Source of the DNA: Phoronis australis
Lineage: Eukaryota > Animalia > Phoronida
DNA: 64,000 bases
Reading direction: 5' to 3'
NCBI GenBank assembly: GCA_002633005.1
Contig: NMRA01000192.1
Location: 533,140 to 597,139, forward strand
Shown: one piece after another, positions 36,121 through 64,000 of the stretch
How positions within the stretch are numbered: the stretch's first letter is position 1
Layout of the letters: every line of letters begins with the position of its first letter
The notes under the pieces: generated by a model
What the model was told of the DNA's origin: nothing
Databases searched by the model: none
The model's input: only the letters and a program-made list of their open reading frames with translations
Program-made: the position numbers and the translations under genes

Positions 36121-37204
36121 TTAAAGCGATAAGTGTTCAGAATCAGAATTGTATTTCTTTGATAGAACGCAGGCTTATCGTCGCTGTACAATATGTCGTG
36201 TTGTTGAGGGCTCAACCTTGGTATAGACTAGAGCACTTCGGCGGGACTCGTCACCCGGATGTCTTGGCATATTAAACGTTTCTTGCTTTGGTGTAGCACA
36301 TTCGCTAATATCAAGCTGTTTGGGACGAATGTTTTTTGCTCAGCTTCTCTTGAAATTGGCTGAAAAATAAATTCGTATCAGTATACTTAGATAGTAGACT
36401 GTTTATTCGATCCTTTTGTAGCCAGCTCGTGTTGACCAGAGATGCTACTCTAAAGTATAGTGGCCACCCATAGGGTCCCCATTGGGGGTCTAGAAATTTC
36501 CTGTAGTTTAAGATTTTTTGATTGCTTGATGTTGAGATGGTCCCCATGAAGCATTTTAGCTGGCTTGTAATCATGACAATTTTCAGCATTTTTTTAAATA
36601 TACAAACTAAGGCCACCGTTATGAGAAATTCTGTTTTTGCTTATACTACTTGGGCTATGACGCCATCAACATACTAAGTCCAACTAGATTGGAGGACACC
36701 AGGCACCGCGAGTCGTTAAAATATTGTTGCGCACAAACTCCATTGCTTTGAAGATGAACTGTGAAAAATCAACATATCTGATATCCATAGTTCAGAAAAA
36801 TAAGGAAATTTGTGAACCGATAGAAATAACCCTCGTCATGGGTGTGCGATGTGGTATGCGCATACAAATTTCTTTTCCGTTGAGTTTTGTTGTGTAGCAC
36901 GGCGTCTAGTGGTGAAGAAAATGGCAGTGTCGATGGCAGCATTCATAATAGAGGCATCAAACGTATTATTTCCCGCTAGGTCCAGTGCTATACACGTAGC
37001 TCTTTTAAAAAAGCACATTGCATGCCTCCAAAACAAAACGTGTTATTAGAATATTTGGCACTTAATAAACATGCAATGTGATATCAGGATTTAAGACTTC
37101 GTTTAAAAGAATTATTAAACATGACCTTCAATGAGTGGTTAGCTTTTTACATGCTATCCGAATGCAGGACCAATCTCATTAATTAGTCCGTTGAATCCAC
37201 TGAG

Positions 37205-37410
37205 CGTTTAGGTTTCATCCCAGTGGCCGAGTGACGTAGTATTTTCATTGGGCGAGATTGTTCGAGGTCGGAACTTAATCATTTTGGCTGACGGAGATGA
37301 GTTCATTCATACAGACAGCTTGCAGACGTGATTGTAGTTTATCATCGCTGGCACGTAAGTGGTGATGGTCGAGAAATGTGAGCGAGAAAAAATTGACGTG
37401 CCTCGCTGCA
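37205..37410 (+). promoter_or_regulatory. Putative promoter/5'UTR of K2P exon-1 copy A, conserved with 62670-62875
   Basis: Conserved TGACGT (CRE half-site, 37232), ATTGG (reverse CCAAT, 37247) and TCATTC (Inr-like, 37303). The ~120-bp block from 37291 differs from copy B at only about 5 positions. Confidence 0.55.
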
Positions 37411-37590
37411 ATTATTATGCTTTAACCTGTTTCTGCCTACCGTTTAACTGATCTCACTCAGACGCCATGAGGGATGATTAACGGTTGGTTAGGACTCCGT
37501 GTTCAGATTACCTGGAAAACCGCGGATGATTGGAATTAGCTGAACTCAGTTTTTATTTCGACAAACATTAATCCTTGACACGCTGTCAAA

Positions 37591-38197
37591 ATGTTTGCCA
37601 TGTCGGAGCTTCCCTCCTACGAAGACAGTGAAAAAATTGGTGTGGAAATGGAACCACGTGAGACGGATATACTTGACTGTCTATATGAGCCAGACATACT
37701 GGAAAAAACGGATCTCAACGAAAAACCTGTGGAAATGACGGAATCGCAAATCGAAATGCCATACCCGTACAGTTATAACGAACGGAGATGTGATGCTAGC
37801 CGGTGCGTCTCGTGTTGTAAGAAAATCGTAAGATTCTTGTTTTCAACAATTGGCGTGTGCTGTGTCCTTGTCGCCTACTGCATAGCTGGTGGGTTCCTCT
37901 TTGTTTATTTGGAAGCCGAGAACGAGAAATCGAACAAAGTGCGTTCACACGTACTGTCCGACGAATTTAGGCGGAATCACACGAAACTCTTATGGGATCT
38001 TACGGAGCGATTGAATGATTTACATCCGCAAAACTGGTCCGATGAAGCGGAAGAAATACTGAAAAGCTTTCAAAAGGGTTTGTACGTACATATCACGAGG
38101 GACGGGTGGGATGGCAAAATGCCCGGAGAAGAACCCGATTTGATGTGGACGTTTGCTGGCTCACTGCTGTATGCAGTCACGGTGATAACGACTATCG
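37591..38197 (+). CDS. K2P potassium channel exon 1, copy A (N-terminus, M1, cap, P1); no exon 2 found in window
   Basis: M1 is FLFSTIGVCCVLVAYCIAGGFLFVYLE and P1 is WTFAGSLLYAVTVITTIG. The intact 607-nt frame ends at phase-1 donor ATC G|gtaagg. Confidence 0.9.
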
Positions 38198-40910
38198 GTA
38201 AGGCCTTAAATATACACTGATTGCATGCTACAACACGTGTGTCGACAAACGCGCAATAAACTGCAGGAACAACTGTTGAACATTGACACGACTTAAATAT
38301 TCCCTGAACACCTTTATTACACAGCTTCTGCATACCTTGCGCAAAATAGATCGCTCTCCCGGCACCAGCTTTAGGCTAAGAAAATCCACTGACTTGCTTT
38401 TCTCCAAAAAGTGCGATTCGGCTACCCTATTCATTTGACTTTCTGGATCCGCCCGATAGTAAAAGACACTGGTAGCGATTTGCGACAATAACAACCACAA
38501 AAAGCCGTTCATGTGGACCTGTCTGGGGGAATTTTTGGCCGAAAACTTTCCCGAAATCTTGAAACTTTATTGCATGGATATAAGATTTGCGGAATTGTTC
38601 AGCCAATGTTCCGTTAAAATTCCGCAAATGGTTTACATGAATGGGCCTATAAACTTGACACAAAATCATAAAATTGTTACAACGGCTCCATCACGTTATG
38701 CATTGCATGATGCAACGTGTCTATTGTTCCTTTAAATTTAAATTGCCATTTTGGTTAGGTTTCCTGTTTTACCAAAACCTTACGAAGTATCACAGATTCA
38801 TTTGGGCTTGAGGGGTTTCACTTTATCTACGTGTGTATCTATTTACATCGATTTGCATTTTCAGACATCACGTCTTTATTTTGATTCGCTTGTGGTTTCA
38901 TACTAAAATATTACCGTCCAATGCCGTGCTCTGTCTACATTATCTGTAACGACATGTTACGTCTGGTGTGAGTTCTCGTGTAATGTGCGTGCTAACATAG
39001 TTCCGGAAATGGTTTTATCATGCATTTCAAATGGATACTGGCTGTGATTTATCACATGGCTCGCACTGTTTAATAACAGTTCTTTAAATAAATATTAATT
39101 ATTTTAGACGCATCAGCATGGAAACGCATTTTGCACTTAACGGGAAGGGTATTACAACAAAACATGTAATAAAACAATTGCTTTGGAAATCGTATTTTGA
39201 CAAACACATGCGGCATTTTTATCCCTGACCTTCAACTGCGCCAACACCGATCAATGCGAACGATTATTTCATTACCAAATTAGTGTTTCGTTGGATCCTC
39301 AAAACTAGGCAGTAATTTTTCTTTCATTGACAAATCGAGTTGACCTTGATATGAAATTGAAACCGCCGTGGTGAAAACTATATATATACATATATAAATA
39401 CTGCTCATGTTTTTTCAGCTGTGATCCTTGTTCTTTCCGTTTCCCACTTTCTTTGCTGAGCCACAGGCAGATCCAGCAATACTCACGTGACACGTTTAAC
39501 AAACAAAGCGGACGCTGTGCGGTAGAGCTCGTAGTATAAAAATACGCATTCCGTTGTGAAGCACTTTCCGAGGTTCCCATGGTTTATCGCAGACTCTTTA
39601 CATCAAAAAATGAAGTGATGTTGTTCATATGCGCGTACTTGGGTTGTTTAGTGTTGGCAGAGTGACGTGTCATCACTTGAAAATTAGTTTTCAAAGCTTT
39701 TCACTTTCCGGTGACTATATACCGAGCAAAACGACTTTATACCAACAGGATAACTCTACGCAATGAAAAGATTGTACAAATACAGTAGGCCAGGTGTAGT
39801 GAAGCCCATCTGTCATCTGAGAGCAACTACGTCTGACATTTTTACCGAGGCAAAATGTAAATGCAATTGTGTCTCTGATATGAAGCATCATGCAACTGCG
39901 ACATCTGGTGAGACTGTATGGGTGCATGAGAACGGAGCGGAATCCGCTTCAGCAAAATTGTTTGCCTATGTAATGGTGAAGCAATTTAACACGGTTGTCG
40001 TTTACAACATGTATGCGTGAGCGTGACAAAAGTAACGTGTTAAATGTGCGAATCCAATAATGACCGCTCTCTTTGATTTAGAAATGGAGATGAAAAACTC
40101 ACGATTATGTCTAATACCGTCAGCTTATACAAGAGAATTGCGAACAATCTTTAGTTTCGTTCCAGTACATTCTGTTATGTGTGAGCTGCAACGCACGTGG
40201 ACCTCTGTCACGTGACGCAGCTTTCACCCTGAGTCAGTGTCGGTTATTACAGAATAGTGGATGTTCAAAAGAGCAGTGTCGTCATGGGGCGTCCGAGTGC
40301 ACTGCACTCATGCAGCTGGCTATGGCAACACAATAACATGACCAAAATGGGATCAGAAGGGTAACTTCAGCGAATAGCGTTAAGTTTGTTCTAGATTTTG
40401 AGCCTGTTTACATGTTTATGCTGGTTGGGTTATCTTTCTTCGAAGAACTTGCATTATTTGGAGCTACTAGGTACGGTAACTTTAAAACTGCTCTACACAT
40501 GTAACGCGTTCTGGTGTCAAAACGACCATCTTACTTCTCATACGTGTTTGTTTTTCCCATTTTTTAATTGAAATTTGAAATAGATTTCAACACTTGTATT
40601 ACTCATGACTGCCTTATTGCCTTGGCGACTGAAACTAAACCGTCGCGATAAGAGACTTAATGGGTCTGGTCTTCAGCACCAAGGACCTGTAAGTTCTCTC
40701 AAGCGTAGTGATCCTTTCTAATCTAAGAAAGAAACAAGATGAGGCTCATTTTATAACCCTAAGTGGTCTAAATTAAATGTTGGTTTTGACACAAGGCACC
40801 TTTATTTAACACGATTTCACTACGGAGAGCAAGCATACCAGTCCTTCCTTTCACCTTCATGTGAATTGTTCAAAGGTGGTTGGCGATTTCATTCCTTTCT
40901 TTTCGCTGTA

Positions 40911-42442
40911 TACGAGGGTCATTCAATACGTTCTCGGCGTCACCCAGCGGCGATAGCAACTAAATTTGGCTTTTATTGTTCAATATAATCTCCCGTTACA
41001 TCAATGCATTTCTGTCATCTGTGCTCCAGTTTTGCAATGCCTTCGTAAAAGAAACTTTTGTCGAACGCCTCAAAATACTCCTCACGTGACCTGTTTCCCG
41101 CCAGATGTGCGTTTGAAATTGTGCTGAAGATTTCTCAATTAACTTTCTGTATTTAAGTCTTACGTTATCTTATAATTCACCCACGATGAGTGCTGACGAA
41201 CCAAGAAAGAGGTATGCAAGCAAAGATAGCGCATCCTTAAACGACAGAGCAAAAAAACTTACTCAAACAACCCTTGACTTCCGTCAGCTTGACCCGCCCC
41301 TGTGTGATTCGGACTCAAATGAGGACATTGCAAAGCTCGAAAAAGCGCTGACTTCGCCCCAAGTTATTAAAACACTCCGTGAGCAACTATTCCAGCCTGC
41401 CCTGGNTAAAAATCAGACGGGGCCAGGTCTGGAGAATAGGCGGGGTGCGGAAGGATTTCAAAGCCACATCTAGTTTCTTCAGCCACCGCAACTTGGGCAG
41501 TATGAACAGGTGCGTTGTCTTGAAGCAACAGCACTCCATTCCGAAACTGCCCGCGTCTCTTTTCCTTTAATGGTTTTTTCGAGTTTTTCCAAAAGTGATG
41601 CGTAGTAATTCCCAGTAACAGTGTGTCCTCGTTGCAAGTAGTCGATCATCTGAATATCTTCGCTGTCCCAGAACACAGAGGCCATAACATTGCTCGCAGA
41701 GGCACCCAACTTGGACTTTCTCGGGCTTGGGGAACCCACGTGCTTCCATTGTTTACTTTGTTGTTTTGATTCCGGGTCAAAGTGGTGGACCCATGTCATC
41801 CTGGGGTACAAGTCTTCTGGAATATTTGGCTGGATCTGCTTGGAATCTTCATAGAAGTTCCTTTGAAATTTGCATTCTGCTCATTTTCTGATCTTGAGTT
41901 AACATTCTTGGCAGGCATCGTGCACTCCTCATGCCCAAATTTTCATTTGAAATTTTAGAGACAGACCCATTGCTGATTCCAGCAGTGTTTGCCAGTTTAA
42001 CAGTCAATCGCCTGTCTTTCATAACCATTGCATGAATTTTCTGCACATTTTCACTGGAGGTCGATAATTTGGGACGTCCTGGACGAGGGTCGTCTTCAAT
42101 GCTTTCTCTACCCCTCTTGAATAAAGCTGGCCACTTTTTACTGTGGAGTAGCTCGAGGAGTCTGTTCCGAGTGTTTTTCACATCTCTTCACGAATATCTT
42201 TTGGTTTCATTCTTTTTTTACCCAAATGCTTTATGACGGCTCTCGTCTCCGTTATCTCCATGCCGCTAAATGTGTTGTCGTCTGCTTTTTGAAGCAGCGC
42301 TTCCTAGCGGCAGTTGACGGTACTAATTCAACATGAACGCAGTACTGTTATAAAAGATGAAATTTTACTATGGTGTGAAAAAAATTTAACCTGCGTTCCT
42401 GTTTTCTTGGTGATGCCGAGAACTTATTGAACGACCCTCGTA
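40911..42442 (-). mobile_element. Mariner (Tc1/mariner, irritans/Bytmar-like termini) with defective transposase
   Basis: 34-bp TIRs tacgagggtcattcaatacgttctcggcgtcacc / rc tacgagggtcgttcaataagttctcggcatcacc with TA flanks. ORF from 42261: MEITETRAVIK...FKRGRESIEDDPRPGRP...HHFDPESKQQSKQW...VMASVFWD...LLLQDNAPVH...HPAYSPDLAPSDF...KCIDVTGDYIEQ*, with stops and frameshifts. Confidence 0.95.
41084..41405 (+). mobile_element. Foreign insert nested in the mariner, probably the 5'UTR and ORF1 start of a retroelement, cut at the N at 41406
   Basis: It interrupts the transposase between YSPDLAPSDF and EEYFEAFDKSFF. ORF MSADEPRKRYASKDSASLNDRAKK...KALTSPQVIKTLREQLFQPAL stays open to the N. Confidence 0.5.
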
Positions 42443-42911
42443 TATAATAAAAATTTATTGCATTTATCTTTACTAGACATTCTCATAAGTTCAATAGAAT
42501 TTCCGGCGTTTTATGAATAGCGTTCGGATAAATAACTTTGTCATCTGATCGACTCAGGTGTAAATCAACGCGATCACTGAATTATTAAAATGAAAAGAAC
42601 CACTAAGTGCAAAACTATGTTCATTAACTGCAAAAAACACTCACGGATGATTGGAAAGAAAAGCCACTGTTGTTCACATATCTTTATAGAGCAACACTTG
42701 ATTCACAAACATTCATGAATTATGCACTAATCGTTTCGTTTAAACGTTTCAAAATGGATTAAGGAATTTTTCATTGTTAGGTAGCGATTTTTTCACGTGT
42801 ACCCTGTGTTAGGCTGTAAAATAGCTCCGTTAGTCAGCCACTTATCTTTCAAGTGTTTGGCTACACACGCCAGTGAAACTATTATTGCGTAGGCTCCATG
42901 ATACTCACACA

Positions 42912-42998
42912 TCAACAACAGCAACAACAATAACAACAACAAAAACAACAATAATAAAAACAAAAACAACAACAATGCCAACAGCAACATCAGTAGCA
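42912..42998. repeat. Degenerate (CAA)n microsatellite
   Basis: caacaacagcaacaacaataacaacaacaaaaac... Confidence 0.9.
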
Positions 42999-45900
42999 AG
43001 AATACATGTACTATAAAAATTGCAATAGTTAAAATCGCTTTCGGGCAAAAGTGAGGGCACATCTGAGTGAGAGTTCAAGGCAATTACTAAACGCGTTAGC
43101 TAGAATCGATTTTAATGCAATAGTTTTCAACGAGGTTTTTCCAGCGTTGCGCGCTTATTCTCGTGTTTTGCTGTGCGTGGAACGTTGAAACTATACAAAC
43201 GTGAACTGATCTCGAAGGTGATATCACTCAACATATGGACCAATGGAAGGCAACATTGCTCTCGCGAAATCCACATGACCTGATGCCTTCGATTTATGTT
43301 TGTTATGTTGTACTACCATAGACACTTGTTTCATTTGATTTTTTGTCACCCATTGAAGTGGCATTTTTACCTGCTTTGATACACTGTTATTGCCTGCTCA
43401 TTTTCGGTTAGAGGTTGTGGTTTTGCAGCCTCATGATCAGATCACGAATATCGACATTTGATGTCTGCATGGACGGCGTGAATGGAAAGTGATATGTCAC
43501 GGCTTTCCGGTCAAAGTTGCCTCATAAGACCGTGGGCTGGATGCCACAGAATGCCTATGTGTATAAAACCACCCATGTGACCATTTTTGGAGAGATGGGG
43601 TGACTTTATCATGAACTATTGTGGCAAAAGTAAAAATTCACCATGATTTTAAATCTTACACAATCCTAGTTTGGCTAATTATGCAAATTGAATAGAAAAT
43701 ATTTAAATATAACATTTCCACATATTTTTAAATCATCCAGACACAAACAACTGTTTTACATTAAAATGCACATTTAAGGAAAATGCCTGAATCTATAAGC
43801 GATACTTGGTGGTGGAATGTGAAACCACTATTCCAAACCTTTTAATAGTTTTAATGAAGATATAAGTATTCTCAAACTAACACAGTCGCCATTTAATTTG
43901 ACAACAGATTTAAAATTTAAAAACATTTATTTTTCCAAAAACATAACTCAGTTTACATAAGATGGTGAAAAGATTCACCATTTTAATTCCAGGTCCTGCA
44001 TACCTTGTTTTTAAGAAAGTTTTAACAATTCGTTTTACTTTTAGCATTTTTGATCAAAAAATAAAAGTTAACTTTGAGCATTTTTAATTAAAAAAAATAA
44101 GAAGTGAACCACAAAATTTCCCAAAAAAATTGCTCTTACTGTATCATCAAACAGATTCCACCTTGAACATTTGCATCAGAGAAAATTCGGTCATGTTATT
44201 GTTCTTATTAAATTGCTACTGGGTGTACCATTACCCTCTGGTAAGTATCACTAAAATACATGGTCACGTGACCCAGTTGATGACAGATTGATACAAAGTC
44301 AAAAATTAAATTTTACAGATTTGTCGATAAAGTCCTACATAACCTTAAGGTTTTGTAACTTTTCTTAAAATATCTATCATTTGCCAGTATTTTCTGAGAA
44401 ATCGTATTGAGATGCGAGAAAAAGAAATAGGTTACAATGGGTTACAGTTAGGTTAAACTTTGACAATATACTAATGTTTGTTTAACACTACCGATACCAG
44501 TTCTACAAAGTGCAGTGAGACACTGCACAGAAGAGGTGGACAAATTGAAGTTGTGTTTCAGTGTTTTCAACTACATAGTGAAAATACAGTAGGCCTAATG
44601 TCACACAAACTCGCGGCACCAAACAGTTCACACTTGGCAGCACTGCAGGCAGGTATTTCGGTATCAAATGATATTCATGGAGTCAGTTGCTGATACACGT
44701 AAGCTATATGACGATTTAGGTGGACACGGTTTCAGAATATCGCCGCGCTATTTGATGTGAATATTTCGGTAGTTTCCAGTAATCTCGTAAAATTATTGTG
44801 AAGTCTCCGGTATGATTTCTGTGTCTGAAAATAAGCTCTTTATTAATCGTACACCCTGTGCGATATTTGATCGTGAGAAATCTCTCACCTTGGTTCGGCG
44901 CTAAGTCATAGTCATTCTTGTCATTGTATCACGACAATGAATTCAACAAAAGTGTAAACTATGTTTCCTACATGTACATATCTGTACTCCGTTTCGAGTC
45001 TGTGAAAACTTTTGTATCAATGGATCTTGGTTAACAGACTAATGGGCCTTCCAACTACTGGGCGATTCTCATATCGAGATAAGCACATCTGTTATCCAGA
45101 AAGTCGGAGAATACATGCATAACTTCATCAATCAATGATTTTTGCACAATAATAACCACCCCTAATAGAGTAAATTCTCAATACCTTGTGAGCAATAATT
45201 TTGTTCAAAATAGTTGCTGTACAGTCTCTAATCGACCTAAAAATTAGGGTTTTGCGTGCTACAAAACGTCTGCTGGTGCCGAGGCAAATACATGTATTGT
45301 GAAATAACCGGTGACGTATTTCCTTTTGTGCTGTATGCAACAGGCGAGTCCCTGACATGGAACCTTGCAGTGGCCTGCAAACTGCAACACTGTAACAATA
45401 TTATGATGATCACGTCGTGTTCTTGTTGTGTCAAAATATTATATCTGGCGGGCGTTAATGTTTTTCTATGTCAATTAGTGTTTTTCGAAAAACAAAGCAA
45501 CCAATGAGGTGAGTAACACTTCGCGCACTGTGTTCTCAGAAACAGGAGCGCCAGCTGATTTAGCATTTTTGCCAAAAAACATGTTATCAATTAAAATTTT
45601 TATCAACTCTGCATTATGCCACTGAGTAACGGCGTCCGAAGATTATAGACTTGTATGAGAAAATGACTTTCGTGACAAAAAGTGTTTTAGCACATTTTCT
45701 GACATCAGGTGTTCTGCAGAACATTGAACCGACTGATAATTTATGATGTAAAAATCTATTTAGTTATGATGGCTGTCACATTTTCTTGATTCCGTTTATT
45801 TATTCATTTCGCCCTTTGCGTTAAACAGTTTACCTCAGCTCATGGGTGGCGAGACATTTCGGTGGAAACACTTTGTAGCTGCAGGAGTTAAAAATAATCA

Positions 45901-46357
45901 CCTTGTCTGCCAGGCATAGACTTTATCTCAGAAAATCCTGCTAAATCTTAGTTTATGGCATGAGAAAGATTCATTAGTTAAATAGCTGAAACGAATGTGC
46001 ATTACAGTTCATCAGTGCATCAAGTAGCTGCAGATATTAGGTGGAACTGTATGCGGTTTATGCCTTTGCCGTGCACATAAAAGCAAATTCAGCAGAGTGC
46101 GCAGTCATCACCTAGCTTTATACCAAGACATCAATCATAACTTGAGATACTCCTGTTTAAATAGGAGTTGTGGATCAATCTCTTGTTTTATAAACATGGC
46201 ATTAACTAAACAACGGGAGAGAAGATTGGAATTATTTCAAGATCCAATAACTGTCCAATGCAGCCGACCGATGACTGCCAGATGTCAGTTGAGTGTTATG
46301 GGTAGGAAGAAGTCTGTAGTCTCGTGTTGCTGTGCTGGCGTTGACACGACGATCTAG

Positions 46358-46433
46358 TCGTCGTCATTCATCGTCGTCGTCATTCATTGTCGTCATCATT
46401 CATCGTCGTCGTCATTCATCGTCGTCGTCGTCG
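46358..46433. repeat. (TCG/TCA)-based short tandem repeat
   Basis: tcgtcgtcattcatcgtcgtcgtcattcattgtcgtcatcattcatcg... Confidence 0.85.
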
Positions 46434-46659
46434 TATGCGAAAATTCAGATACATAACGCTAAACTTCTCATAGATCAGACGAATCAATAAAATACTTTTT
46501 CAGTACTTGTAGTTGACAAACACCATATTTTTAGAATCTACGGAAACCACAGACAGCCTCAGATTAATCATGTTACACCCCGTATGTTTAGAAGGCAACT
46601 AACCGATCTAAAAGTACTTCACAATTACTCAATTTGTAGTTTTATATAGATATCAGGGT

Positions 46660-47440
46660 ACTTAGACTTCCGTGCGTTCCACGCACTGCTTTAGCCTGCC
46701 TGCGCACAAAGCTCTTCTCTCACGTTCACCTTTCCCTTTCACGTACGTACATGTATATTGGCCCCTCCTGCACCATTTTCGTGTCTCACTGACATATATT
46801 TTGGTTGCACACAGACCACGGCTGTCCTCCCGCAGTCCGCGGTGCTAGTTCCCGACCTGACGGACCTATAATAGTTGCTGTTCCAATTTTTTGAATATCC
46901 TCAAATCAAAAAGAAATTGCGTTTTTCACTAAATAAGATAATTTAATCCAGCCTTTCAAGCACTTTACCGACAATAACGTTTATGTAATCACGAAGACAA
47001 CTGGAATTGTTTTATTGAGCGCAAAGTGAAATCAGTAACTTTTTGCTGTCTCCTCAACAAACATTGTCAGTATATGAATATATGTTTGTATTTTTATTGT
47101 TTAGAAGCAGCAGTTGGGTAATGATTTTGTTTAAAACGAATTGATAATCAGCGAGAATGTGTTTACTCAAGCAGATTTGTGCGCAATAATTTTGTATTGA
47201 ATTATGCGAAGTGGGCCGAGGCAATGGAACGGCGTGCGAGGGTGTGGGACAGGTTTCGAGATCAACGAATAATGTGCAACAGCAAGGCTGGTCTGTAAGA
47301 TTCGGAAATGTGGTTCGGGAGGGGAAATATGCGTTAATCGTAGGCGAAAAGCGAGCGCGAGAGAAGAGATTAGTGCGCGATTAGCTAGCCTAGCAAGAAC
47401 TTAGGCGCCCTTGATTAACCGGAACGCAAGGATTCTGTAG
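46660..47440. mobile_element. Old MITE with long degenerate TIRs
   Basis: tgcgttcc...gcgcacaaagctcttctctcacg...atattggcccctcc on the left mirrors ggaggggaaatat...cgcgagagaagagattagtgcgc...ggaacgca on the right. Confidence 0.55.
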
Positions 47441-52656: not shown

Positions 52657-53050
52657 ATTTATCATTATCACTATCATCACTATAAGTAGTAAATAATAAC
52701 AATATCAGTAATAATAATAATAATAACATGATACTAATGATAGAAATAATATAATTCTAATAGTAATAACAATGGTAGTTATGATAATATTAATTATTAT
52801 TATCATTATCATTATTACTATTATTCATTATTATTTTTATTATTATTTATTTTTATTTATTAAAATAACAACGATAATAATCTAAAGTATAAAAACTATC
52901 ACTGTCGTTGTTCTTACTATAATTGCTGTTTGTAGTTGTCATTGCTGTTGTTTTATATTCATATCCATAATTAGTATTGTTGTTTGCGTTGTTGATAACT
53001 ACAATTTATTCATTTTTTGTTTTATTTTATTTTATTTTGTTTTGTTTTGA
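52657..53050. repeat. AT-rich (AAT/ATT)n low-complexity region
   Basis: ataataataataataac...attattattatcattatcattattac. Confidence 0.85.
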
Positions 53051-54581
53051 ATGCTGTTTTATAAAGGAAGCAGGACCTTGCAGAAAAACATATGACGAAC
53101 AATAGCGTCATGTAGCAAAGGCATGACTGAGAGTAATAGTCGCTAAGTTTGTTTGATAAATAAATAGGCGTGAGAGACAAGAAATATAAGTGATTGGGGG
53201 TCTATATCTGTGCCGATATGTACAAATTGACCCAGTAGTTGGTCACTTTAATTGTTGTCGAAAACACTTTCCGTTACCATAATTGCGGCCAAACTGCGTA
53301 CATGTAGATGCTGGCGATCTATTGTCGAGATGGTTACTGTGACGTCATGAATAACAAAAATCTATTTTTGATGAGCTGCAGTGTTTATAGAGTGAGAGGC
53401 TAATTAGTTTGTTTAAGATAGTTGAACGGAACCTCCGCTTATAATTGAAAGGTTGACAAGAGGGCAGGCTCTCAGAAACCGAAAGTGTGATTTGCCTTGT
53501 ACACCTTGTACACTGTAGTTCCACGATGTATTGTTTCCACATAGCATTTTCAAAGAGGACAGATTTGTTGTTTTCTCTCAAGACTCATGTGCGGAAAAAT
53601 ACATCAGCATCTCGACATTGGGGACATATTCCAGACAGAACATGATTTGCATTCGTTTGCCTAGAATGTCAGTAGCCAGGGGCATGCATTGACTACGAAG
53701 CCGGGTAGAGCTTATTTTCAGGGGAATAAGAATATCAAGTCGACGTTTGTGTGTCCACTGTAGTGCTGTTGTCAGCGTAAAATCGTGTGAAACGAAAAGT
53801 TTTCGTATTTACTTAACGGATAACAGTTTCGCCCAAAAGTTGCTAACTAAGGTGATTTCCAATCCGTTTTGACGTTCAAACGGGACCAGACGTGTTTTTA
53901 CTTGTCACTGGTGACTTTTGTTCAGAAATGAAACATAAACATGAGATTGTCTTGTTCCAACATTTTTGGAACAGCTTGAAATTCATTGGCATGCATTGAC
54001 GAAATATGGACTAGATTTGATCGTTGTGCTAGTGTGTACGCGTGCGTGCGTGTGCGTGTGTATCCACGTGTTTGTAAGTTTGCATGCATGTGTGCATTTT
54101 AATCTTAATGCGTGAATTACTTTAATCGTTATATTTGTTTATCTGTTGATACGTTTGGGTATGGACAAATCATTTAGCATTTAGTATATTTTCCTTCCAC
54201 TTAATTGCTGATCTTTGTTTTGATTATGTTACCACGAAATTAAGAGTGATTATAATTTATACTGCATAGATTTCCGCCGGATGCTAATACAACATATACG
54301 TGTAGTTTAGCGCAAACTATGTAGCACCTTGTTCGAGCCAAGAAAGCCGTGAATTCTCCGAAACTGACATCTGTTTCAATCAGTCCTGATATAATAATTG
54401 ATGTTCTAGCCAGTTAGTCACCTGTGTCAGACCATACGTTCCAGGTTATTAGTCGAGCCTAGCCTTGGCACGCCATACATTAAAGTTTTGCCATCTTTCG
54501 GCTACATGTTGACCCTACCTGCATCAGACTCCAAATCACATGTGCATTGAGTTTTTCAAGCTATAAAATAGGAACAATATT

Positions 54582-54826
54582 AATGATGATGAGGATGATG
54601 ATGACTGAGCCTATGATGATGAAGATGATGTAGATGAAGAAGAAAAATAAGAAGATGATGATGATTATGATGATGATGATGATTATGATGATGATGGTGA
54701 TGATGATGATGATGATGATTATGATGATGATAATGATGATGATGATGATGGTGATGGTGAGGATGATGATGACGACGACGACGACGATGATGATGATGAT
54801 GGTGATGATGACGGTGGTGTTGATGA
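54582..54826. repeat. (ATG)n microsatellite, ~80 triplets, imperfect
   Basis: atgatgatgaggatgatgatg...gatgacgacgacg... Confidence 0.95.
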
Positions 54827-57800
54827 CCGCTGTTATCGGACGTCGTCATCGTGTAACATCATCACCTATTACAAAATTTCATACACATGCAACTATTGTC
54901 ATAGTTATGGACTCTCAAATCTCTTTCGCCCTTTTTAACTGGCCTAAAACGAACGACCAATTAAGTGCTTTTCAATTATAAAATCGGTGTCACGATCTCC
55001 ATTGCCTTGTTGGGGTTCTATTCCCGTTTCCAACGAAAACATCGAAAATCATCAACGACTCGAAAAAACGCTTTAGAATTTATTGCTGAGGAACATCCTA
55101 AAATACAACACATTTACGCATTGCTTTAGACTTTATCGCTGTATTTGCCGGCTCATTCACCATCAATTCAAGATTGGATGAGAGTGGTAATCTTTAAAAC
55201 CTTAAGCATTTCAATTCAGCATTGACAGCTTAACATCGAGCACGATGCAATTTCAAACAATTAACGCTTCTGTCTAAAAAGGGAGTAGCTTCAGAATCTT
55301 CACTAAACACTCTGACTTGACTGTTTGCTATCCGTAAATGACGCGTGACTACAAAAGCATCCACATGGAACGTTTAGTATGCTATCATACTTTGGTTGAA
55401 CGACTTTATTTGTGACTTTGATGGTTATGATGAATACCAAGAACTACTGTGGAATACATACATGTATAATCGTGCCAGTTTCGCTCAAATATAGTTTAAA
55501 CTCCATGACCTTTCAAAGCTGCTATGAACCTGATTCCTGTCAAAAGTACTCACCATTTTAAATTTGTGTTGTTTGAAATTGCTTTTATTCCAGTTATTAT
55601 TGGGTATAAAAAGACGAACTTGTTATAGAACGTTATCAGAATCAACACGTTGGCATGGCCGGGTGGTGTTATGCCTCAAGCATGTTTAACAAACATGCGG
55701 GTCATTTTTCTCAAGCTCCGGAAAAATATTTCCCTCAAGGAAGAAAGAAGCTGAAACTAGTTTTGGAAGGGTACGTGATATAAATCAAAAGTTAAACCGA
55801 TACTAAACAATGTTTTACTATCTTCCGACATTTTCACTGACTCAAACGTTGAAAAAGAATAATGTTCTGTAGACCTTTGCCTTAATCCTCAGTTTGATTC
55901 AAGTTCAGCATCTTCTTCAAACTGTGCTGCTAAATATTCAAGATAGTTTATGGCAACGGCAAAAGGCTGCGCCTCTCGAAATCGCTGAATCCATGCAGTG
56001 AGGATGAGGTTTTAGCTGGACAATGACTTCATCTTTACAGCGAAATAAGAATGATACAACATCATGTAATGAAATAAATTTTGAGCGAAATCACCAAAAC
56101 AGGGTTATCCTTTTAAATGTCATTTTGGTAGACACCAATGGTGCGCGTTCCGTAGCGCGAGTTTCTTGCGAATTTGGCGAGATCAATCAAGATCGCGCAA
56201 GTGCAAGACGAGTGGTTCATAAGCTCAAGACTACATGTACACGGAATACTTGACTTCCGAAATAGAAGCGCCATATCTAAGCATTCCCAGGTTCATACGA
56301 TCTTGAATTGTTGTCGAATGACTCGACGTACATGTATGTATCAAGTCACAGGCAGTGCGTGTATGCGCCATTTTCTAACTCGCAATTTTAGGGTCGGCCA
56401 AGGAAGCCTGTAATATTAGATTTTTAAAATCATGCCAATCTTCCACTAGCTGGGTCACGTGACTACGTCATTTTATTACAAAATTAGGAAAAATAAAGGC
56501 ATATACACACCACAACAACGGCATGAACAGGGTGGGAAATTTCACAGAATAAAATTTTCAAGACGAAATCTCAAAAACTGAGATACACCTTTCTAAATTG
56601 TATCATTTCCATTTTGTTTCCTGCAGCTTTTGATCCTTTTATAAAAAGCACGAAAGTTCTAATTTTTGTAGTCTCTCATGCATAAGTAATTATTTTAGAA
56701 AACAATTCCGGCTAGTAGCGTCTTCGAGAACTGTACACAAAGCGCCGTTTCTAAGATGCGATATCCCGCAGTATATAGTCAAATCTATACCTTTTAGTAG
56801 GTTACTGCATGACCTTAAAACTTACGGTATTAAAATACACGTGTTGATGAAGGCCACTCGGCTTTTCATGTATGACCGATAGAACAGCAAAACATTTCTG
56901 CCGCAAAGTGTTTACTTGTAGGTACATTGTTAAACCATTACACCTTAGTGTTAGTTTACCTTCTCCATCTCTAGGGACAGGAAATTAGTGGGTCAAAATT
57001 GATAATGCGTCTGCTTGAAAATAAAATCGATAAGTGTATCGTTTGCTTATTGGACAAATTGCTTGTGTGGGAAAATTAGATCTATTTCCTCTCAGATCAC
57101 TGTCTGATATATTTTTGCCGTTGTTATTGTCTGCAAGTTAATTCAAATGCGATGTTCAACAATTTGAAGTTGCAAAATGCGACAAACCGTGACCATGCCA
57201 CCCTTATACGAGGATATAGTTGAGTTTTGTTACCGCGATACTACTTAACTGTTTGCTGTTTGCAATTCAGTTCAGGGCACTTGAGGAGCACGTAATGTCC
57301 CGAGTGGTTAGTACGTAAGTTCGGGTTCCGTCCGTCAACAGCCTGCGTAATGCATCCTCACCTTACAGAATGTGATGCTACGAATGCAGTTATGGAGAAA
57401 AGTTATTCAGGTTGTGTAGGAACGTTTTGAAAAGTATGCACATTTAGCCTAACATATAATAACTAAAGCACGTGAAATGTGAAAGTAAAAAGGCTGCGCA
57501 ATTTCACTGGTCACATTTTGGGGTCACGTGAACATGACTTTAAGAGTAAAATTTAGTGAAAACGTTCATTGCTAGCAAGAGCAAAGGATCAGCAAGATAA
57601 TGAAATTTTAAGCACATTTTATTTGCTTTAAATATTGCAGTTGAGATCTCAAAAACCTGTTTAAACCTCAAATAATATTTCGTTTTGATTCGTTTTTCAT
57701 AAACAGCCTAAAAGTCCAATTTTTGATATCCCATCATGCAAAAAAATGGAGCAGTTTAAAAACAGTTCCTAACAGCGTATTTTAGAATAGGGTATGAAAC

Positions 57801-60800
57801 ATGGTTTCCATAAGCTTCATATGAACAAAGTAAGCCGTTTTTGATACTGACTCAATTCTCTCAAGTGTGACGTAATCATGAGAAATCACGTGACAAATTT
57901 ACAACAATGTGATTTAGTAATTCTTACTTGGTGACTGCACCCTTATTAAACGTCCAATCGCGAACTTTTGTTACACTTACCGGTATGGACAAATAACTGA
58001 CCATTATTTTTGAGACACGCCACTATAAGACAACTTTGGAGCCTGGTCTCAAGCAAATATATGCATGAGCATAGACAGATCCTTTGAAGCCCTCAATCAC
58101 CTCTAATTAGACCAAGAAACGATTTGAGGCCAATTACATGACAGCAAATTCTCTATATTCAAAAACTGATTTTGATGATGGAAGGCGGGTTTATACCGAC
58201 TTCCATCAGATATACTAAATGTAATTGATGAGTATAATGTAATCCGAAATTTATTAACAAATTACAAAAATGACATCTTTAGCATCTAATTGACATCTAG
58301 TGAACGAGCACGTGATTGTTTAACTCCCTCTTCCAATTCAGTCCGAGAATGACAATGCCTTGCCACATTTCTACAGATAAATCCAGTTTAAAAACGTCTA
58401 TTGGAACTGAGGCACCCAATCGCTGCCAGCAAACGAAAAGAAATGGTGTCCTTAAAATATGTGCTTACCAGTAGCGCTTCTGATTATGTCACTGTTAGGT
58501 CTTGGGTACAGGATGTTGGTGAATAACTAGAAGGTAAATGCAGAAACATCAAATGTAATACGTAAACAAAATCTCATCGCGGAGACATCGAAATGTTTTC
58601 ACCGTGACTGTTAGCAATTAACCTTCCAGGACGAATATTGATGGGACTGTGAACTTGGAAGGAATTTTGTTGTTGGATTCGCAAATTCTACTAGACTGAT
58701 CCATCTGAATAGAACAAATAACACAGTGTATCACGAATCCATTAACCTTGGTACTTAGTACACTTGAGAACTGATTTACATGTTACAGATTGTGCAATCG
58801 TCTGCCGCGTAACTGGATACATGCAGGGTTATTGTTCAGGATTTTGGCGCCCTGCGCTTCAGCAACTGAAAAATTCAATTCCTGGCATTTTATCTCGAAG
58901 CCTAACGAAACCTGCACATTTCAAATAACAAAACAGTTTCACAACACCTCACTAACCAAACCAAAGTTAACTCGGCATTAAGTCCATGCTTTCTGTCAAA
59001 CAGTTATGAATTAGGCTATTTCCCATCATAAAGTTCTTTTTATTCTTTACCTTTCTGACGTAAGAGGCGATCCCTGAGCTCGAAAACAAGTGCCAATGAG
59101 ACATTGCTTCAGAGCAAGCGATAACCAAACCAAAGTTAAAGGATTAAGACTGTGCTTTTTATAAAAATTGGTCTCGTCGTGTTCTGTACTCAGTTCTGAT
59201 TGTCACCTCTAAGCTCGAGAAGAACAGACAGTCCGCTTTTCCTTCGGAGCATGCGCATAAGTTTTAGGTCACGCTGTTACCTGAAATGTTGAGTTTGAAT
59301 GGACAAAATTATGAACTGTCAGTTCTTTACAACCCCATCACTTCCTAAACTGCTTAGAGAACACTTGGAGCCCAATTTCATATCTGTAAGTAGCCTAATT
59401 CAAAACTTGATTTTTGACAGAAAGCAGTTATAGTGCCTCTTTAAGTAGAGAAATTTCCTGTTGAGACAGACTGCATATTTATGTGGAAGTGACGTCATTG
59501 GCAAACAAGTACAGTATGTCTGACTAGGGAAACGCGCATGGTCAATCTGGCTTAATTTTCAATCAAAAAGGAGGCCGACATTTCAGAGATGAAAAATCGT
59601 TTGACTTGAGTTGTGATTCATTCGTTTCTCTGCTCAGCAACGATGCAGACGGAAGTTAGCACACTGATCATGTTCTTGCCATTCCCGGATTATTTTACTA
59701 TTACGCAGCAAAGCCTTGAGAAAAATTTACAATTTTATTTCTGACAGTGATTGAAAAGAACGGTTTTAACCTTTGTGTAAAAATAACGTTTCGTGTTTCC
59801 TTTGATCGCAAGCTTAGAATACATGTATGTAATTAATTTTAACGATGGCCAGACTTTTTGCTTTTTATGTGTTATGACTGCACATTTTAAAGATGTCATT
59901 GTAAACATCTATTCATGTGTACTATTATTTTATTGTAATCGTTGCCAACACGTGTGGTGTGAAAGTAATCTTGACTGATTACCTGTTAAAGCTACAGTTC
60001 AGTTGAGCCACTTTATCGACGGGCTTGAGTGGTTCACAACACAGCATATCAGCTGGGCTGCATTTCATAGACCCAAGAAACACGCGAAAATGCAAGATCA
60101 CGCAGTTCACAAAACATAGTCATGAATCACCAGCGAACCACGTGATCACACCAGCTTTACACGATAAACGTTGCATCTACGGGTCACAACCCTGGGTAGA
60201 TTTAAATACCTGTCTCGCGGCGAAAAAAATCTAGCCAGATGGTCGTGAGGTCCTAGCGAGGTCCTAGTGTTAATGAACTCCACCCCGTTTCGTGCAAAGT
60301 TTGCAACTTGACCTGTCCTAACGTACATGCAGGGAACCAGGACGTAACCAAGTATGTAAATGATTGCAGTGTTGAGAAGCAAATCGGTCGCGATCGTATA
60401 GTACTAATTTGCGTTAATCACACAACGAACTCCCAGTGAGACTTTTTTAGTGTTTGGGGGTTCTCTTATCTCTCACTTCATTAACAACACATGTACTCGG
60501 TGACATCTGGTTGTCCATAGTCTTATGACGCCTGTTAAAAATACATGTAGCCGGACCGCTTGGAAACTCTGCTTGAGAGTAAGCACATTCTTATTATTAC
60601 CTCATCAAACCAAGAATTTTGATGTTAAAGAAGCCGCAGTGTACATGAATTTACTACTCTATTTCGTTTCTTCAACGTCGTTGTAGTTATGTGAGCAAGA
60701 CAAATCGCGCTTCCGAGAGAATATCGAAAATTCAAGAAAGAACATTAGATTGCATTTATAAAAATGTGGATGTATTTTGTTCGTTTAAAATGAACTGCAA

Positions 60801-61709
60801 CCAAGATTTGATGCTGATGATGATTCATATAACATGGGAAGTGCATGTACTGTGCATGAACATATTTTGCTTGCTGGGCAGTTTTAGCTGATTAATAACA
60901 GTCGAATGTTTATTGGCCACTTAGTCACAAAGAACACGAACAGACATTTCTGCAAAGATCCAAATCACCCCTTTCACGAGGGCTGGGGCAGTGTCATCCG
61001 CAAGAACCAAAAACGCTTGTTCACTGACACTTGTTAGGCGACTATTAATATTAAAATACCGTATATGCATAATTTGTCATATTGCATTCATACATTAAAA
61101 CCTGCCTTCAAAATCAGAAAAATAAAAGTAAGAACAACAAAAATCCAGTGCGATGCACCAATCTTTACTGATCTAACAGTTTTGCTCCCAACATAAACAT
61201 CGAATCGGCTTTGTTGGGTATCACACAAAAGTACAGTTCATGTACATGTAAGTTTTAGCAGTAATCAACTTCGAGAGTGAGCACACACCCACTAATTGAC
61301 CTTTTGAGAGAGCCTCTATTTTTGTTGTTTTTAGTTCTAAAACCGTACATGATTGGAACGTCAGTTGTATGTAATATTGTGACAGTTATCGTGCAAGAGT
61401 GCCTTGTTGCGTGTAAGCGTATGCCAAGACAAAAACGTCATAGTAACACAGTGAGTTCCTGTGGTGTCATAAAACTGAGAAGCACCGTGCTTTAAATGAG
61501 TGGATAATATTACATTAATCTGTTTTCCTGCGTAATTGAGTGTTGAAATATTCATCAAGAAACGCCCAACTAATCTCGCTGATGCGAATGCCTAAAACGA
61601 ACAGCTAGTTCTTTGCAATGCCAAAAATGACTTGTCATTTGAGTAACGAACGAATTCGGACCAGTTTTATTGCTGTTAGTGGTCTGATTTAAAATTTATT
61701 TTCTTCCTT

Positions 61710-61992
61710 CCGTAAAGTAATTATTTGCGGCGTAAAGTTACTTTTTACGGCATAAAGTAATTATTTGCGGTGTAAAGTAACTTCTAACGCCACAATTAAT
61801 TATTTTACGCCAGAAAAAGTTACTTTACGCCCCTAATAATTACTTTACGCCTGAAATAATTACTTGACGCCTTAAATGATTACTTTACGCCGTGAATAGC
61901 TACTTGACGCCGTAAACAATTACTTTACACCGCAAATAATTACTTTACGTCGCAAATAATCACTTTACGCCATAAATAGTTACGTTTTCGCC
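61710..61992. repeat. 20-bp minisatellite with an internal polarity switch
   Basis: About 3.5 units of cgtaaagtaattatttgcgg followed by about 10 units of the reverse complement ccgcaaataattactttacg. Confidence 0.9.
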
Positions 61993-62669
61993 TCTAACAA
62001 GAATTAACTTGCGCACGTAATTTAGCGGCGTAGCGTTCACCCATTTGGCCAACGATAGGGCTTATCGGCGCTTTACTTTTACCTGGTTTTGTTGAGGTGG
62101 GACAGGATTCGTCAACCCAGTTTTGACATACATGAATTAATAGTTACATGTAATTGCATAGGTTTTGCTACCGCTTCTATCCTATGCAATCAGTTTGCCC
62201 AGCTTGTCTTTGACTGATACTCAATTCGGGATTTTCATGCTCCGCTTCTTGACCATTCAGTGGAGCCGTGCAGCTAGCCCGTGTTCACCAAGGCGGCTAC
62301 TCTACGACGGCTGCCACATCTCTGACGCCTTAAATCCAAGCCGATTGGAACACACCATTTGCCGCGAAGCTTTAAAAATCGTTTTTGACATTTTTCATTG
62401 CCTTAAAGGTAAACAGTAAAATACTACTTATTTGAAAAGAAATTACATATCGTTCGTAAAAATAAGGAAATACCGCTGCGCCCAGTTTTCACACAATACA
62501 AAACGTGTGTTAATAAAGTACGTCTGGCACTGAATGAGCCGGCAATGCTATATTCGGGATTTGAGTCGTTATTTAAAAGAATTAAATAACATGAATTTCA
62601 ATCACTTGTTAGCTTTTTACACGGTATCCTAAATCAAGATTAATCTCACAAATTAGTCCATTAAATCAG

Positions 62670-62875
62670 CGCTTAGGTTTGATCCCAGTGGCCGAGTGAC
62701 GTAGTTGTTTCATTGGACGAGCGTGTTCGGAGTTGGAACTTAATCATTTGAACTAACGGAGATGAGTTCATTCATACAGACAGCTTGCAGACGTGATTGT
62801 AGTTCATCATCGCTGGCACATAAGTGGTGATGGTCGAGAAATGTAAGCGAGAAAAGATTGACGTGCCTCGCTGCA
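62670..62875 (+). promoter_or_regulatory. Putative promoter/5'UTR of K2P exon-1 copy B
   Basis: Paralogous to 37205-37410 with the same cccagtggccgagtgacgtag, cattgg and gagatgagttcattcatacagacagcttgcagacgtg motifs. Confidence 0.55.
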
Positions 62876-63063
62876 ACTATTGTACATTATTAACCTGCTG
62901 CTGCCTTACGTTTAATTGATCTCGCTTAGGTACCAAGATTAATGATTTGTGGTCATTTTGTTCGGACTCTGTGTTCACGATTACCTGTAAAACCGCCGAT
63001 GACTGAATTAAAGTGAACTCAACTTTTATTACGAGAAACATTTATACTCGGCACGCCGTTAAC

Positions 63064-63670
63064 ATGTTTGCCACGTCGGAACTTCCCTCTTACGATGACT
63101 GTAAAACAACTGGTGTGGTGATGGAACCGCGCGAGACGGAAATCCTAGACTGTCTATACGAGCCAGAGATACTGGAAAAAGCGGATCTCCATGAAAAGAC
63201 TGTGGAAACGACGGAAATGCAAATGGAAACACCATACCCGTACAGTTATAACGAACGGAGATGTGATGCCGGCAGGTGCGTCTCCTGTTGTAAGAAATTT
63301 GTCAGATTCTTATTTTCAACAGTTGGCGTGTGCTGTGTTCTTGTCGCCTACTGTATAGCGGGTGGGTTCCTCTTTGTTTGTTTGGAAGCCGAGAACGAGA
63401 AATCGAACAAAGTGCGTTCACACGTTATATCCGACGAATTTCGGCGGAATCATACGAAACTCTTATGGGAAGTTACGGAGAGGTTGAATGTCTTACATCC
63501 GCAAAACTGGTCCGATGAAGCGGACGAAATACTAAAAAACTTTCAAAAGGGTTTGTACGTACATGTCACGAGAGATGGTTGGGATGGCAAAATGCCTGGA
63601 GAAGAACCCGATTTGATGTGGACGTTTGCTGGCTCATTGCTGTACGCAGTCACGGTGATAACAACGATCG
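63064..63670 (+). CDS. K2P potassium channel exon 1, copy B; downstream exon(s) presumably beyond the window
   Basis: Same 607-nt length as copy A, 27 aa differences in 202, P1 WTFAGSLLYAVTVITTIG, donor ATC G|gtaagg. Confidence 0.92.
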
Positions 63671-64000
63671 GTAAGGCTTTTTACTATACGGTGTTCACAT
63701 GGTGTGCGTGTATGGACAAAGTGCTGGTACATTTTCTGAGCATCGACTCGACCTAAAATATTCCATCCCCACCATTAAAGGCATTATCTGTTCAGCTTTT
63801 ATTAAGAAGATTTGAGGCCCGCTCTTCCTCACTCCACTCCCAACTTCAGGTCAAAAACTCCGCTGACATACATGTAGTGATCTTCAAAAACCTGGTTTTG
63901 ACTCCCCTCTTCATGTGATCTTCCACAAATGCGACTCTGGTTGGGGCTTTTCATGAAATTCATTCCCGTAACAACAGTAGTGTTACATATTAACCTCAGG

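What the first reader, a model, noticed from the sequence alone, without database searches (positions are those of the whole stretch)
37000..63950. Duplicated promoter + first-exon K2P cassettes with no exon 2 between them: candidate variable-first-exon potassium channel locus
Seen: two intact, equal-length (607 nt) K2P first exons 25.5 kb apart on the same strand. Each has its own ~550 bp of homologous upstream DNA and a canonical phase-1 donor in the middle of the TIG|YG filter. The complete paralog in this window carries M2-M3-P2-M4 on one 1.1-kb exon, and no such ORF or second pore motif is visible between A and B. Intron flanks have diverged strongly with many indels, while both exons keep frame. 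16 of the 27 aa changes fall in the first 56 residues and P1 is identical, which suggests both copies are still under selection. The only N in the interval (41406) sits between two halves of one mariner, so it is unlikely to hide an exon. Established: vertebrate UGT1A and clustered protocadherin loci splice alternative promoter/first exons onto shared constant exons, and K2P channels work as dimers. Inference: A and B may be alternative N-terminus/M1/cap/P1 modules spliced to one shared exon right of the window, giving isoform and heterodimer diversity. I do not know of this architecture in K2P genes.
Basis: partly seen in the sequence, partly recalled or inferred. Interest (0 to 1): 0.85.

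Follow-up and report, generated by a model that had tools for sequence, protein, structure and literature searches.

The report
Two potassium-channel front exons, one tail
An animal genome carries two intact, transcribed copies of the first half of a two-pore potassium channel gene with no second half between them, so they likely share one downstream exon and would give two versions of one channel, but that shared exon lies outside the window and was not seen.

Summary
A (37591-38197) and B (63064-63670) are intact 607-nt K2P first exons with identical donors, dN/dS 0.21 and a conserved upstream block; no exon 2 lies in the visible interval, by searches shown to detect 30-residue pieces. RNA reads show both copies transcribed in sense at low level, and one contig shows an A-like copy spliced at the donor. 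The decisive point was not obtained: the letters after the junction were not displayed, nothing right of the window is held, and no B junction was listed. Best reading (0.55): alternative promoter/first-exon modules on one shared exon. Rivals: A's own exon 2 is missing from this assembly (the N at 41406 is a real gap, not one base), or A is a recent orphan (a frameshift appears in one run's A-type reads). New here: a spliced antisense RNA runs back across both modules. The scan noted this layout before on other DNA (an insect K2P gene; unchecked AI note), which lowers novelty; my paper searches found none describing it in K2P genes.

The parts
37029..37590 (+). Upstream block of module A (likely promoter and 5' UTR); core 37218-37430 is 90% identical to B's
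   Evidence: sense RNA depth begins in the 37300-37449 bin
37591..38197 (+). Module A coding exon: N-terminus, M1, cap, pore helix 1, ending in TI-G at a phase-1 donor (GT at 38198)
   Evidence: A-type sense reads and spliced contig
40909..41086 (-). 3' end of a decayed mariner, with terminal inverted repeat and TA
41087..41405 (+). Unrelated insert in the mariner, opening a 73-codon frame cut by the gap; no Pfam match; likely the start of another mobile element
41406..41406 (.). Single-N scaffold gap of unknown true size
41407..42444 (-). Rest of the decayed mariner (Transposase_1 E 1.5e-19), second terminal repeat
36250..36359 (-). Exon of the antisense RNA upstream of A; acceptor at 36359, left end not mapped (start given is a depth bin)
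58469..58526 (-). 58-nt exon of the spliced antisense RNA, seen in 3 of 3 RNA runs, canonical acceptor and donor
62494..63063 (+). Upstream block of module B (likely promoter and 5' UTR)
   Evidence: sense depth from the 62801-63000 bin in X8
63064..63670 (+). Module B coding exon, same anatomy and donor as A
   Evidence: sense reads in 3 of 3 RNA runs
63563..63608 (-). Antisense exon inside B's coding exon, spliced to 58526 (right end approximate)
   Evidence: joint in 4 reads of run X7, GT..AG on the minus strand, letters between not known
6642..9256 (-). Complete two-exon K2P paralog (exon 1 9256-8722, intron 8721-7730, exon 2 7729-6642); model for the missing exon

Best explanation
A and B are two intact, transcribed promoter-plus-first-exon copies of one K2P channel gene that are likely spliced, one or the other, onto a single shared M2-M3-P2-M4 exon predicted to lie right of the window. 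Shown: an old tandem duplication of promoter, exon 1 and some intron; purifying selection on the coding exon and on a 200-nt upstream core; sense transcription of both; splicing of an A-like RNA at the conserved donor; no exon 2 in the visible 24.9 kb. Inferred: A's pre-mRNA runs through B and is joined to the first exon 2 beyond B; the two subunits would have the same pore helix and tail and differ in promoter, N-terminus (16 changes) and M1/cap (11 changes); as K2P channels are dimers, AA, BB and AB channels would be possible. The main gain is likely regulatory (two promoters) rather than a new pore.
For: Both exons intact with no indel while the flanking intron has 92 mismatches and 67 gap positions over about 320 nt. 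dN/dS 0.205 overall, 0.118 for residues 57-202, Fisher p 2e-9. Upstream core 188 of 208 aligned sites identical against 101 of 136 synonymous sites, p 1.3e-4. No exon 2 in 38198-63063: best tblastn E 0.42 with an independent relative, best HMM domain E 0.12, while planted 30-40 residue pieces scored 1e-8 to 3e-5 and a copy with 25% random decay 1e-3. B sense reads in 3 of 3 RNA runs. A-type sense reads at diagnostic site 37998: 0 of 2 in X6, 4 of 6 in X7, 3 of 5 in X8; at 38164, 2 of 2 in X6. Sense depth is zero over 38200-39849 in 3 of 3 runs. X9 record 4 fits 38107-38198 with 2 differences (B has 5 there) and its other 57 letters fit neither the intron nor anything up to 40299; the fit ends one G past the donor, as an exon opening like the paralog's exon 2 would give. 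An antisense junction 58469 to 36359 links the two sides of the N in the assembled order, and the DNA run shows two letters at sites in and beside B (63380, 63921), so A is unlikely to be B's allele. The assembly writes sized gaps elsewhere (546 and 392 N), so a single N probably means an estimated distance near zero (inference).
Against: The shared acceptor was not seen. The 57 letters of the X9 junction were among 28 rows not shown. No junction from B was listed. The X9 contig is 151 nt, may be one amplified molecule, and carries the B letter at 38164, so it could come from an A allele or a third copy. All 4 of 4 reads covering 38019 in X7 (A-type, 2 starts, possibly one molecule) lack one T, which would end the frame at residue 156; 0 of 4 in X6 and 0 of 5 in X8 show it. 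A maximum-likelihood tree puts all core changes on A (0.090 vs 0), although not significantly (twice the log-likelihood difference 2.25 against an even split) and counts by single outgroups are mixed (3:4, 3:1, 3:2, 2:3, 2:0). Pairwise dN/dS cannot show that A is still under selection today. The N at 41406 hides sequence of unknown length. Depth is only 1-5 reads, with about 18-19% of each run read.
Confidence: 0.55

Rival explanations
1. A and B are two ordinary tandem two-exon genes, and A's own exon 2 is missing from this assembly: hidden in the gap at 41406, dropped by a misjoin at a repeat, or deleted on the assembled haplotype only.
For: The N cuts an insert and part of the mariner is absent, so it is a real gap. 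The neighbouring paralogs are ordinary tandem genes, one complete in 2.6 kb. The assembly has 5 gaps in 64 kb. DNA contigs were checked only over 58001-64000. This reading explains the selection on A and its spliced junction equally well.
Against: The two mariner halves face the same way, have matching terminal repeats (35 of 39) and complement each other but for a short stretch, which fits one element with an insert. Sized gaps are used elsewhere, so a single N suggests a small estimated gap (inference). The antisense junction supports order across the N, though not the gap size.
Confidence: 0.18
2. A is a recent orphan: a full tandem duplicate that lost its exon 2 lately and is starting to decay. 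It is still transcribed and its donor splices by default to whatever acceptor comes next (B's exon 2 or a cryptic exon), with no selected role.
For: 1-nt deletion in 4 of 4 X7 reads at 38019. Tree leans to faster change on A. Mobile-element debris in the interval. Past selection would leave the same dN/dS.
Against: No remnant of an exon 2, even decayed by 25%, so the loss must be a clean deletion. The deletion reads may be one molecule and are absent in X6 and X8. The rate asymmetry is not significant. A's sense signal is as high as B's in X7 and X8 (excess 781 and 1268 nt against 566 and 792).
Confidence: 0.17
3. Interleaved genes: two exon-1 copies followed by two exon-2 copies right of the window, each paired or combined freely.
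For: Nothing right of 64000 could be read, so it is not excluded.
Against: Needs two separate duplications or a rearrangement (inference); no positive evidence.
Confidence: 0.06
4. A makes a selected, truncated M1-cap-P1 half-subunit through a non-channel terminal exon, acting as a dominant-negative or modulating partner.
For: The exon joined to A is unknown. One-pore K2P splice variants with such effects are recalled for mammalian TREK-1 and TALK-1, from no call.
Against: Read-through into the intron (which would add KALNIH then stop) is not seen: sense depth is zero past the donor. No joint within 38199-40299 was listed. The junction opens with G as a K2P exon 2 does (weak).
Confidence: 0.04

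Closest known systems
Clustered protocadherin alpha/gamma and UGT1A loci (variable first exons on constant exons)
   Same: Tandem promoter-bearing large first exons with no constant exon between them. Pcdh alternative promoters: abstract of PMC4835542. Antisense RNA from inside the variable exon running more than 20 kb upstream is described for Pcdh-alpha (bioRxiv 10.1101/360206, passages read); here an antisense exon lies inside B and the RNA is spliced back past both promoters. UGT1A is recalled, from no call.
   Different: Only two modules seen; splicing to a constant exon not shown; the antisense start site, CTCF sites and stochastic choice were not tested; the product is an ion channel.
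Chelicerate sDscam 5' cassette arrays (PMC4835542; abstract and section 11 read)
   Same: Invertebrate precedent for tandem 5' cassettes with own promoters spliced to a constant exon.
   Different: Those arrays are multi-cassette, cassettes generally of two or four exons, with RT-PCR support; here two single-exon modules without a demonstrated constant exon.
K2P genes with alternative 5' exons: C. elegans twk-40 a/b/c (PMC9049526, passages read); TREK N-terminal variation (PMC8396510, passage read)
   Same: One K2P gene, several promoters or upstream exons, different expression and effects.
   Different: There the alternative exons add only N-terminal residues to a common channel; here the alternative unit would include M1, the cap and pore helix 1.
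Insect K2P gene with two alternative M1/cap/P1 modules on a shared GYG exon (earlier AI note e1-7506955, said to be in RefSeq isoform pairs)
   Same: The same layout as proposed here, at the same split in the first pore.
   Different: Unchecked here; another genome; described as old and diverged, whereas A and B are 87% identical.
Ordinary tandem two-exon K2P genes split at TIG|YG (the complete paralog in this window)
   Same: Same exon-1 anatomy and phase-1 donor; A and B are about 34-36% identical to its exon 1.
   Different: Its exon 2 follows after 992 nt; A has none within 24.9 kb of visible sequence.

Membership tests
K2P (two-pore-domain) potassium channel | M1, extracellular cap helices and pore helix 1 ending in the T-x-G filter start | tested here: met
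   A and B align over this region with full K2P proteins P0002 (E 2.5e-17, Pfam PF07885) and the window paralog (E 2e-22); alignment. Pfam alone gave 0 families for A and B and PDB matches to TASK/TREK were weak (best E 0.035).
K2P (two-pore-domain) potassium channel | Second pore domain (M2, M3, P2, M4) in the same subunit | tested here: inconclusive
   Absent from the visible interval; the exon joined to A was not readable; nothing right of the window is held.
K2P (two-pore-domain) potassium channel | Dimeric potassium leak current | not testable with these tools
   Dimer architecture and heterodimers from PMC8436263 (passages read).
Variable-first-exon / constant-exon locus (Pcdh, UGT1A, sDscam type) | Two or more paralogous first exons in tandem, no constant exon between | tested here: met
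   caveat of the gap at 41406
Variable-first-exon / constant-exon locus (Pcdh, UGT1A, sDscam type) | Each first exon has its own promoter and is transcribed | tested here: inconclusive
   Conserved upstream block at both; sense reads from both that begin within the block; no start site mapped, and B reads could in principle come from A's pre-mRNA.
Variable-first-exon / constant-exon locus (Pcdh, UGT1A, sDscam type) | All variable exons splice to the same constant exon | tested here: inconclusive
   One A-like junction, letters not shown; no B junction listed.
Variable-first-exon / constant-exon locus (Pcdh, UGT1A, sDscam type) | Promoter choice coupled to antisense RNA from within the exon (Pcdh-alpha only) | tested here: inconclusive
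   Antisense spliced exon inside B in 4 reads of one run; start site and any regulatory role not tested.
Uncollapsed allele (assembly duplicate) | Allele-level identity extending through the flanks | tested here: not met
   dS 0.315, intron 69% with many gaps; two letters already present at B in the DNA run; RNA junction links both sides in series.
Old pseudo-exon | dN/dS near 1, frameshifts or stops, lost donor, no expression | tested here: not met
   dN/dS 0.205, intact frame and donor, A-type sense reads. A possible frameshift allele in X7 keeps a recent orphan open.

The most novel reading that the evidence does not exclude
A protocadherin-style ion-channel locus: selected promoter + M1/cap/first-pore modules, perhaps more than two, spliced onto one constant exon, with a spliced antisense RNA that starts in or beyond the downstream module and runs back across both promoters to take part in choosing between them, as in Pcdh-alpha.
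Probability: 0.12. Interest if true: 0.8.

Novelty: new variant of a known kind. Interest (0 to 1): 0.42.

Why it matters
If true, a K2P gene diversifies by swapping its promoter, M1, cap and first pore helix as one exon, using the intron in the first selectivity filter as the hinge. M1 is domain-swapped between subunits and the cap carries modulator sites (PMC8436263, passages), so natural A/B pairs with one shared tail would be a clean test of what this module contributes and of isoform heterodimers. It would also mean that gene counts in expanded invertebrate K2P clusters are misread when first exons are counted as genes or as fragments. The value is limited because the logic is known from other families, the two modules have the same pore helix, and the scan has an unchecked note of the same layout in insects.

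Tried and rejected
No whole genome is held, so the scaffold right of B could not be read. No RNA holder was listed for B in the run index; this is not evidence. Absence of sense reads over B's last 70 nt was not counted as evidence, since depth is 1-2 and the tool drops human-like reads without notice. The second read-laying run included a repeat at 35800-36125 that filled the loose-end table, so the junction letters were lost; both calls are used. Metagenome scan with B: 90 pattern matches, 0 confirmed. Protein searches found 2 of 185 (longer), 5 of 40 (near) and 10 of 575 (exon 2 core) candidates, none from this locus and no isoform pair; two exon-1-like proteins (P0007, P0010) share a longest-contig length, which I could not follow. 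The representative search was busy five times and the Atlas did not answer, so no close outgroup and no name for the insert at 41087. The tree held three rows that were exon-2 pieces (P0012, P0017, P0019); I rebuilt it with 7 clean rows. Rejected: A as B's allele; A as an old pseudo-exon; intron read-through as the main product; an exon 2 split into pieces of 30 residues or more (a 20-residue piece scored only E 0.008 and 35% decay was not detectable). Paper searches that found no description of alternative M1-cap-P1 first exons in K2P genes: (listings and abstract starts only; the library lacks most subscription papers; no supplements read).

Full report
1. Observation. The window holds four K2P first-exon sequences and one exon 2: a minus-strand exon 1 running off the left end (ATG 271), a complete minus-strand gene (9256-8722, 7729-6642), and the plus-strand copies A (37591-38197) and B (63064-63670). 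A and B are each 607 nt to a phase-1 G followed by GTAAGG, 89.4% identical, with 27 residue changes, 16 in the first 56 and none after 168. They are K2P first halves by homology to a full-length relative with Pfam PF07885 (P0002, E 2.5e-17) and to the paralog; Pfam does not hit them alone.

2. Selection. Nei-Gojobori dS 0.315, dN 0.064, ratio 0.205; 0.388 for residues 1-56 and 0.118 for 57-202. The intron flanks are homologous beyond chance (0 of 200 shuffles reach the score) but only 69% identical with 67 gap positions, so the duplication is old and took in promoter, exon and intron. A 213-nt upstream core is 90% identical, above its flanks (76-78%, p 8e-5) and above synonymous sites (p 1.3e-4). 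Which copy changed more is unresolved: maximum likelihood puts the core changes on A, but an even split is only 1.13 log units worse, and single-outgroup counts are mixed. A pairwise ratio shows past selection, not that A is still needed.

3. Is exon 2 between them? No trace. tblastn with the paralog's exon 2 and with P0002's second half, and HMMs of 2 and 12 sequences over six frames with stops read as X, give nothing better than E 0.12 in 38198-63063; an HMM without the paralog finds the paralog's exon 2 at 8e-45. Planted pieces of 30-40 residues were found at 1e-8 to 3e-5, a 20-residue piece at 0.008, a copy decayed by 25% at 0.001, by 35% not.

4. The N at 41406. It lies in a decayed mariner (40909-42444, terminal repeats 35 of 39 alike), but the left side ends in about 320 nt of unrelated sequence and the transposase does not join up: the stretch between the SDF and EEYF motifs is absent, about 25 codons by my recall of mariner proteins. 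So it is a true gap. Against a large one: the halves complement each other as one element would, and this assembly writes sized gaps elsewhere (546 and 392 N). I leave about one chance in six for exon 2 being absent from the assembly by this or another defect.

5. RNA. Three stranded raw-read runs with the same species label (X6-X8, one study, 18-19% of each read) and two contig sets were laid. On 58001-64000 at 95% likeness, 22, 18 and 11 reads were laid; B has sense depth of 0.8-1.7 within 62801-63600 in 3 of 3 runs, about two to three pairs each, and no donor-spanning read was listed. On 35800-40299 at 80%, which pools A and B reads, sense depth lies on 37300-38199 and is zero on 38200-39849 in 3 of 3 runs. 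At site 37998 the B letter is in 2 of 2, 2 of 6 and 2 of 5 sense reads, so A-type reads exist in X7 and X8; X6 has 2 of 2 A-type sense reads at 38164. After subtracting B's signal, 250, 781 and 1268 nt remain. X9 record 4 (151 nt) fits 38107-38198 with 2 differences and has 57 further letters beyond the donor that do not fit. Both introns begin GTAAGG, so a fit that stops after the first G is a splice, not genomic sequence of either copy. B differs from A at 5 sites in that stretch, so the contig is nearer A, but it has B's letter at 38164 and may be one amplified molecule or a third copy. Its letters were among 28 rows not shown. Against my reading: 4 of 4 X7 reads at 38019 lack one base (2 starts; 0 of 4 and 0 of 5 in the other runs), which would truncate A at residue 156. 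About one sense pair each lies at 39850-40149 (X8) and 59201-59800 (X7), compatible with a long A pre-mRNA but too few to count.

6. Antisense RNA. A minus-strand exon at 58469-58526 is seen in 3 of 3 runs. Its downstream loose ends match 36333-36359 exactly (X6, 8 reads, agreement 0.78) and in part the exon ending at 57377 (X7, 4 reads, 0.68). Upstream it joins 63563, inside B's coding exon (X7, 4 reads, letters between not known), or two exons not found in the window. All these sites are canonical on the minus strand. The 58469-36359 intron spans A and the N, which supports the assembled order and argues, with the two letters seen at B in DNA run X1 (63380, 63921), that A is a paralog and not an allele. 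The joined exons show no long frame. The likeness to Pcdh-alpha antisense RNA (10.1101/360206, passages read) is a lead only.

7. Mechanism. An exon kept intact with its donor for this long needs a downstream partner. With none visible before B, the simplest reading is that A splices over B to the exon 2 that B also uses (0.55). The products would share pore helix 1 and everything after it, and differ in promoter, N-terminus and a few M1/cap residues (for example Y106C and D143V). Rivals: own exon 2 missing from the assembly (0.18), recent orphan (0.17), two exon 2 copies further right (0.06), selected truncated subunit (0.04). The orphan case could give the same junction by default, so junction data must be paired with population or sister-species data.

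8. Comparison. The logic is that of clustered protocadherins and chelicerate sDscam (PMC4835542, abstract and section 11 read) and UGT1A (recalled). In K2P genes I found only N-terminal alternatives: twk-40 a/b/c (PMC9049526, passages) and TREK (PMC8396510, passages). PMC6377628 was searched for isoform terms and gave only a reference title. Eight searches found no paper on alternative M1-cap-P1 first exons in K2P genes; supplements were not read and subscription papers are mostly missing. The scan's own notes report this layout in an insect K2P gene with RefSeq isoform pairs, alternative M1/half-cap exons in arthropods and alternative last exons in an annelid TASK gene. I could not check them; they raised my prior for the layout and lowered the novelty. 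No note exists for this genome or sequence.

9. Verdict. Observation confirmed; interpretation plausible and unrefuted but unproven at its key step. New variant of a known kind; interest 0.42.

Noticed in passing
window 36250-63608, minus strand: Multi-exon, alternatively spliced antisense RNA (exons at 58469-58526, ending 57377, ending 36359, one inside B's coding exon, two more not in the window) with no long frame; it may be a long non-coding RNA or the 5' UTR of a gene further left.
   Followed up: partly
window 9290-9292, minus strand: The complete paralog's ATG (9256) has a possible acceptor (TTACAG) about 35 nt upstream, so it may have non-coding upstream exons; a link to the antisense RNA above was not tested.
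   Followed up: no
window 1-271, minus strand: A further K2P exon 1 running off the left end, about 42% identical to the complete paralog's; the window is part of a K2P cluster with genes on both strands.
   Followed up: partly
window 38019: 1-nt deletion in 4 of 4 reads of run X7 (2 starts): a frameshift allele of A or one erroneous molecule.
   Followed up: partly
window 41087-41405: Insert in the mariner opening a 73-codon frame cut by the N; no Pfam match, Atlas did not hold it.
   Followed up: partly
window 37232, 37289, 37394 and 62697, 62859: TGACG half-sites (CRE-like, label recalled) in the conserved upstream blocks, two of them kept in both copies; no TATA box found.
   Followed up: no
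window 35800-36125: Expressed multi-copy repeat (RNA depth 12-60 on both strands, many loose ends).
   Followed up: no
window 5505-6220 minus; 11786-12337 plus; 16297-16830 minus: Retroelement endonuclease piece (Exo_endo_phos_2, E 1e-10) and two further frames that look like mobile-element remains.
   Followed up: no
window 61711-61993, 52695-52857, 9944-10107, 54577-54826: Palindromic MITE-like repeats (the first at DNA depth 125-215 against about 7) and a trinucleotide repeat tract.
   Followed up: no
proteins P0007 and P0010: A partial and a full exon-1-like K2P frame from another animal share the same longest-contig length (696,292), hinting at tandem first-exon copies there too.
   Followed up: no
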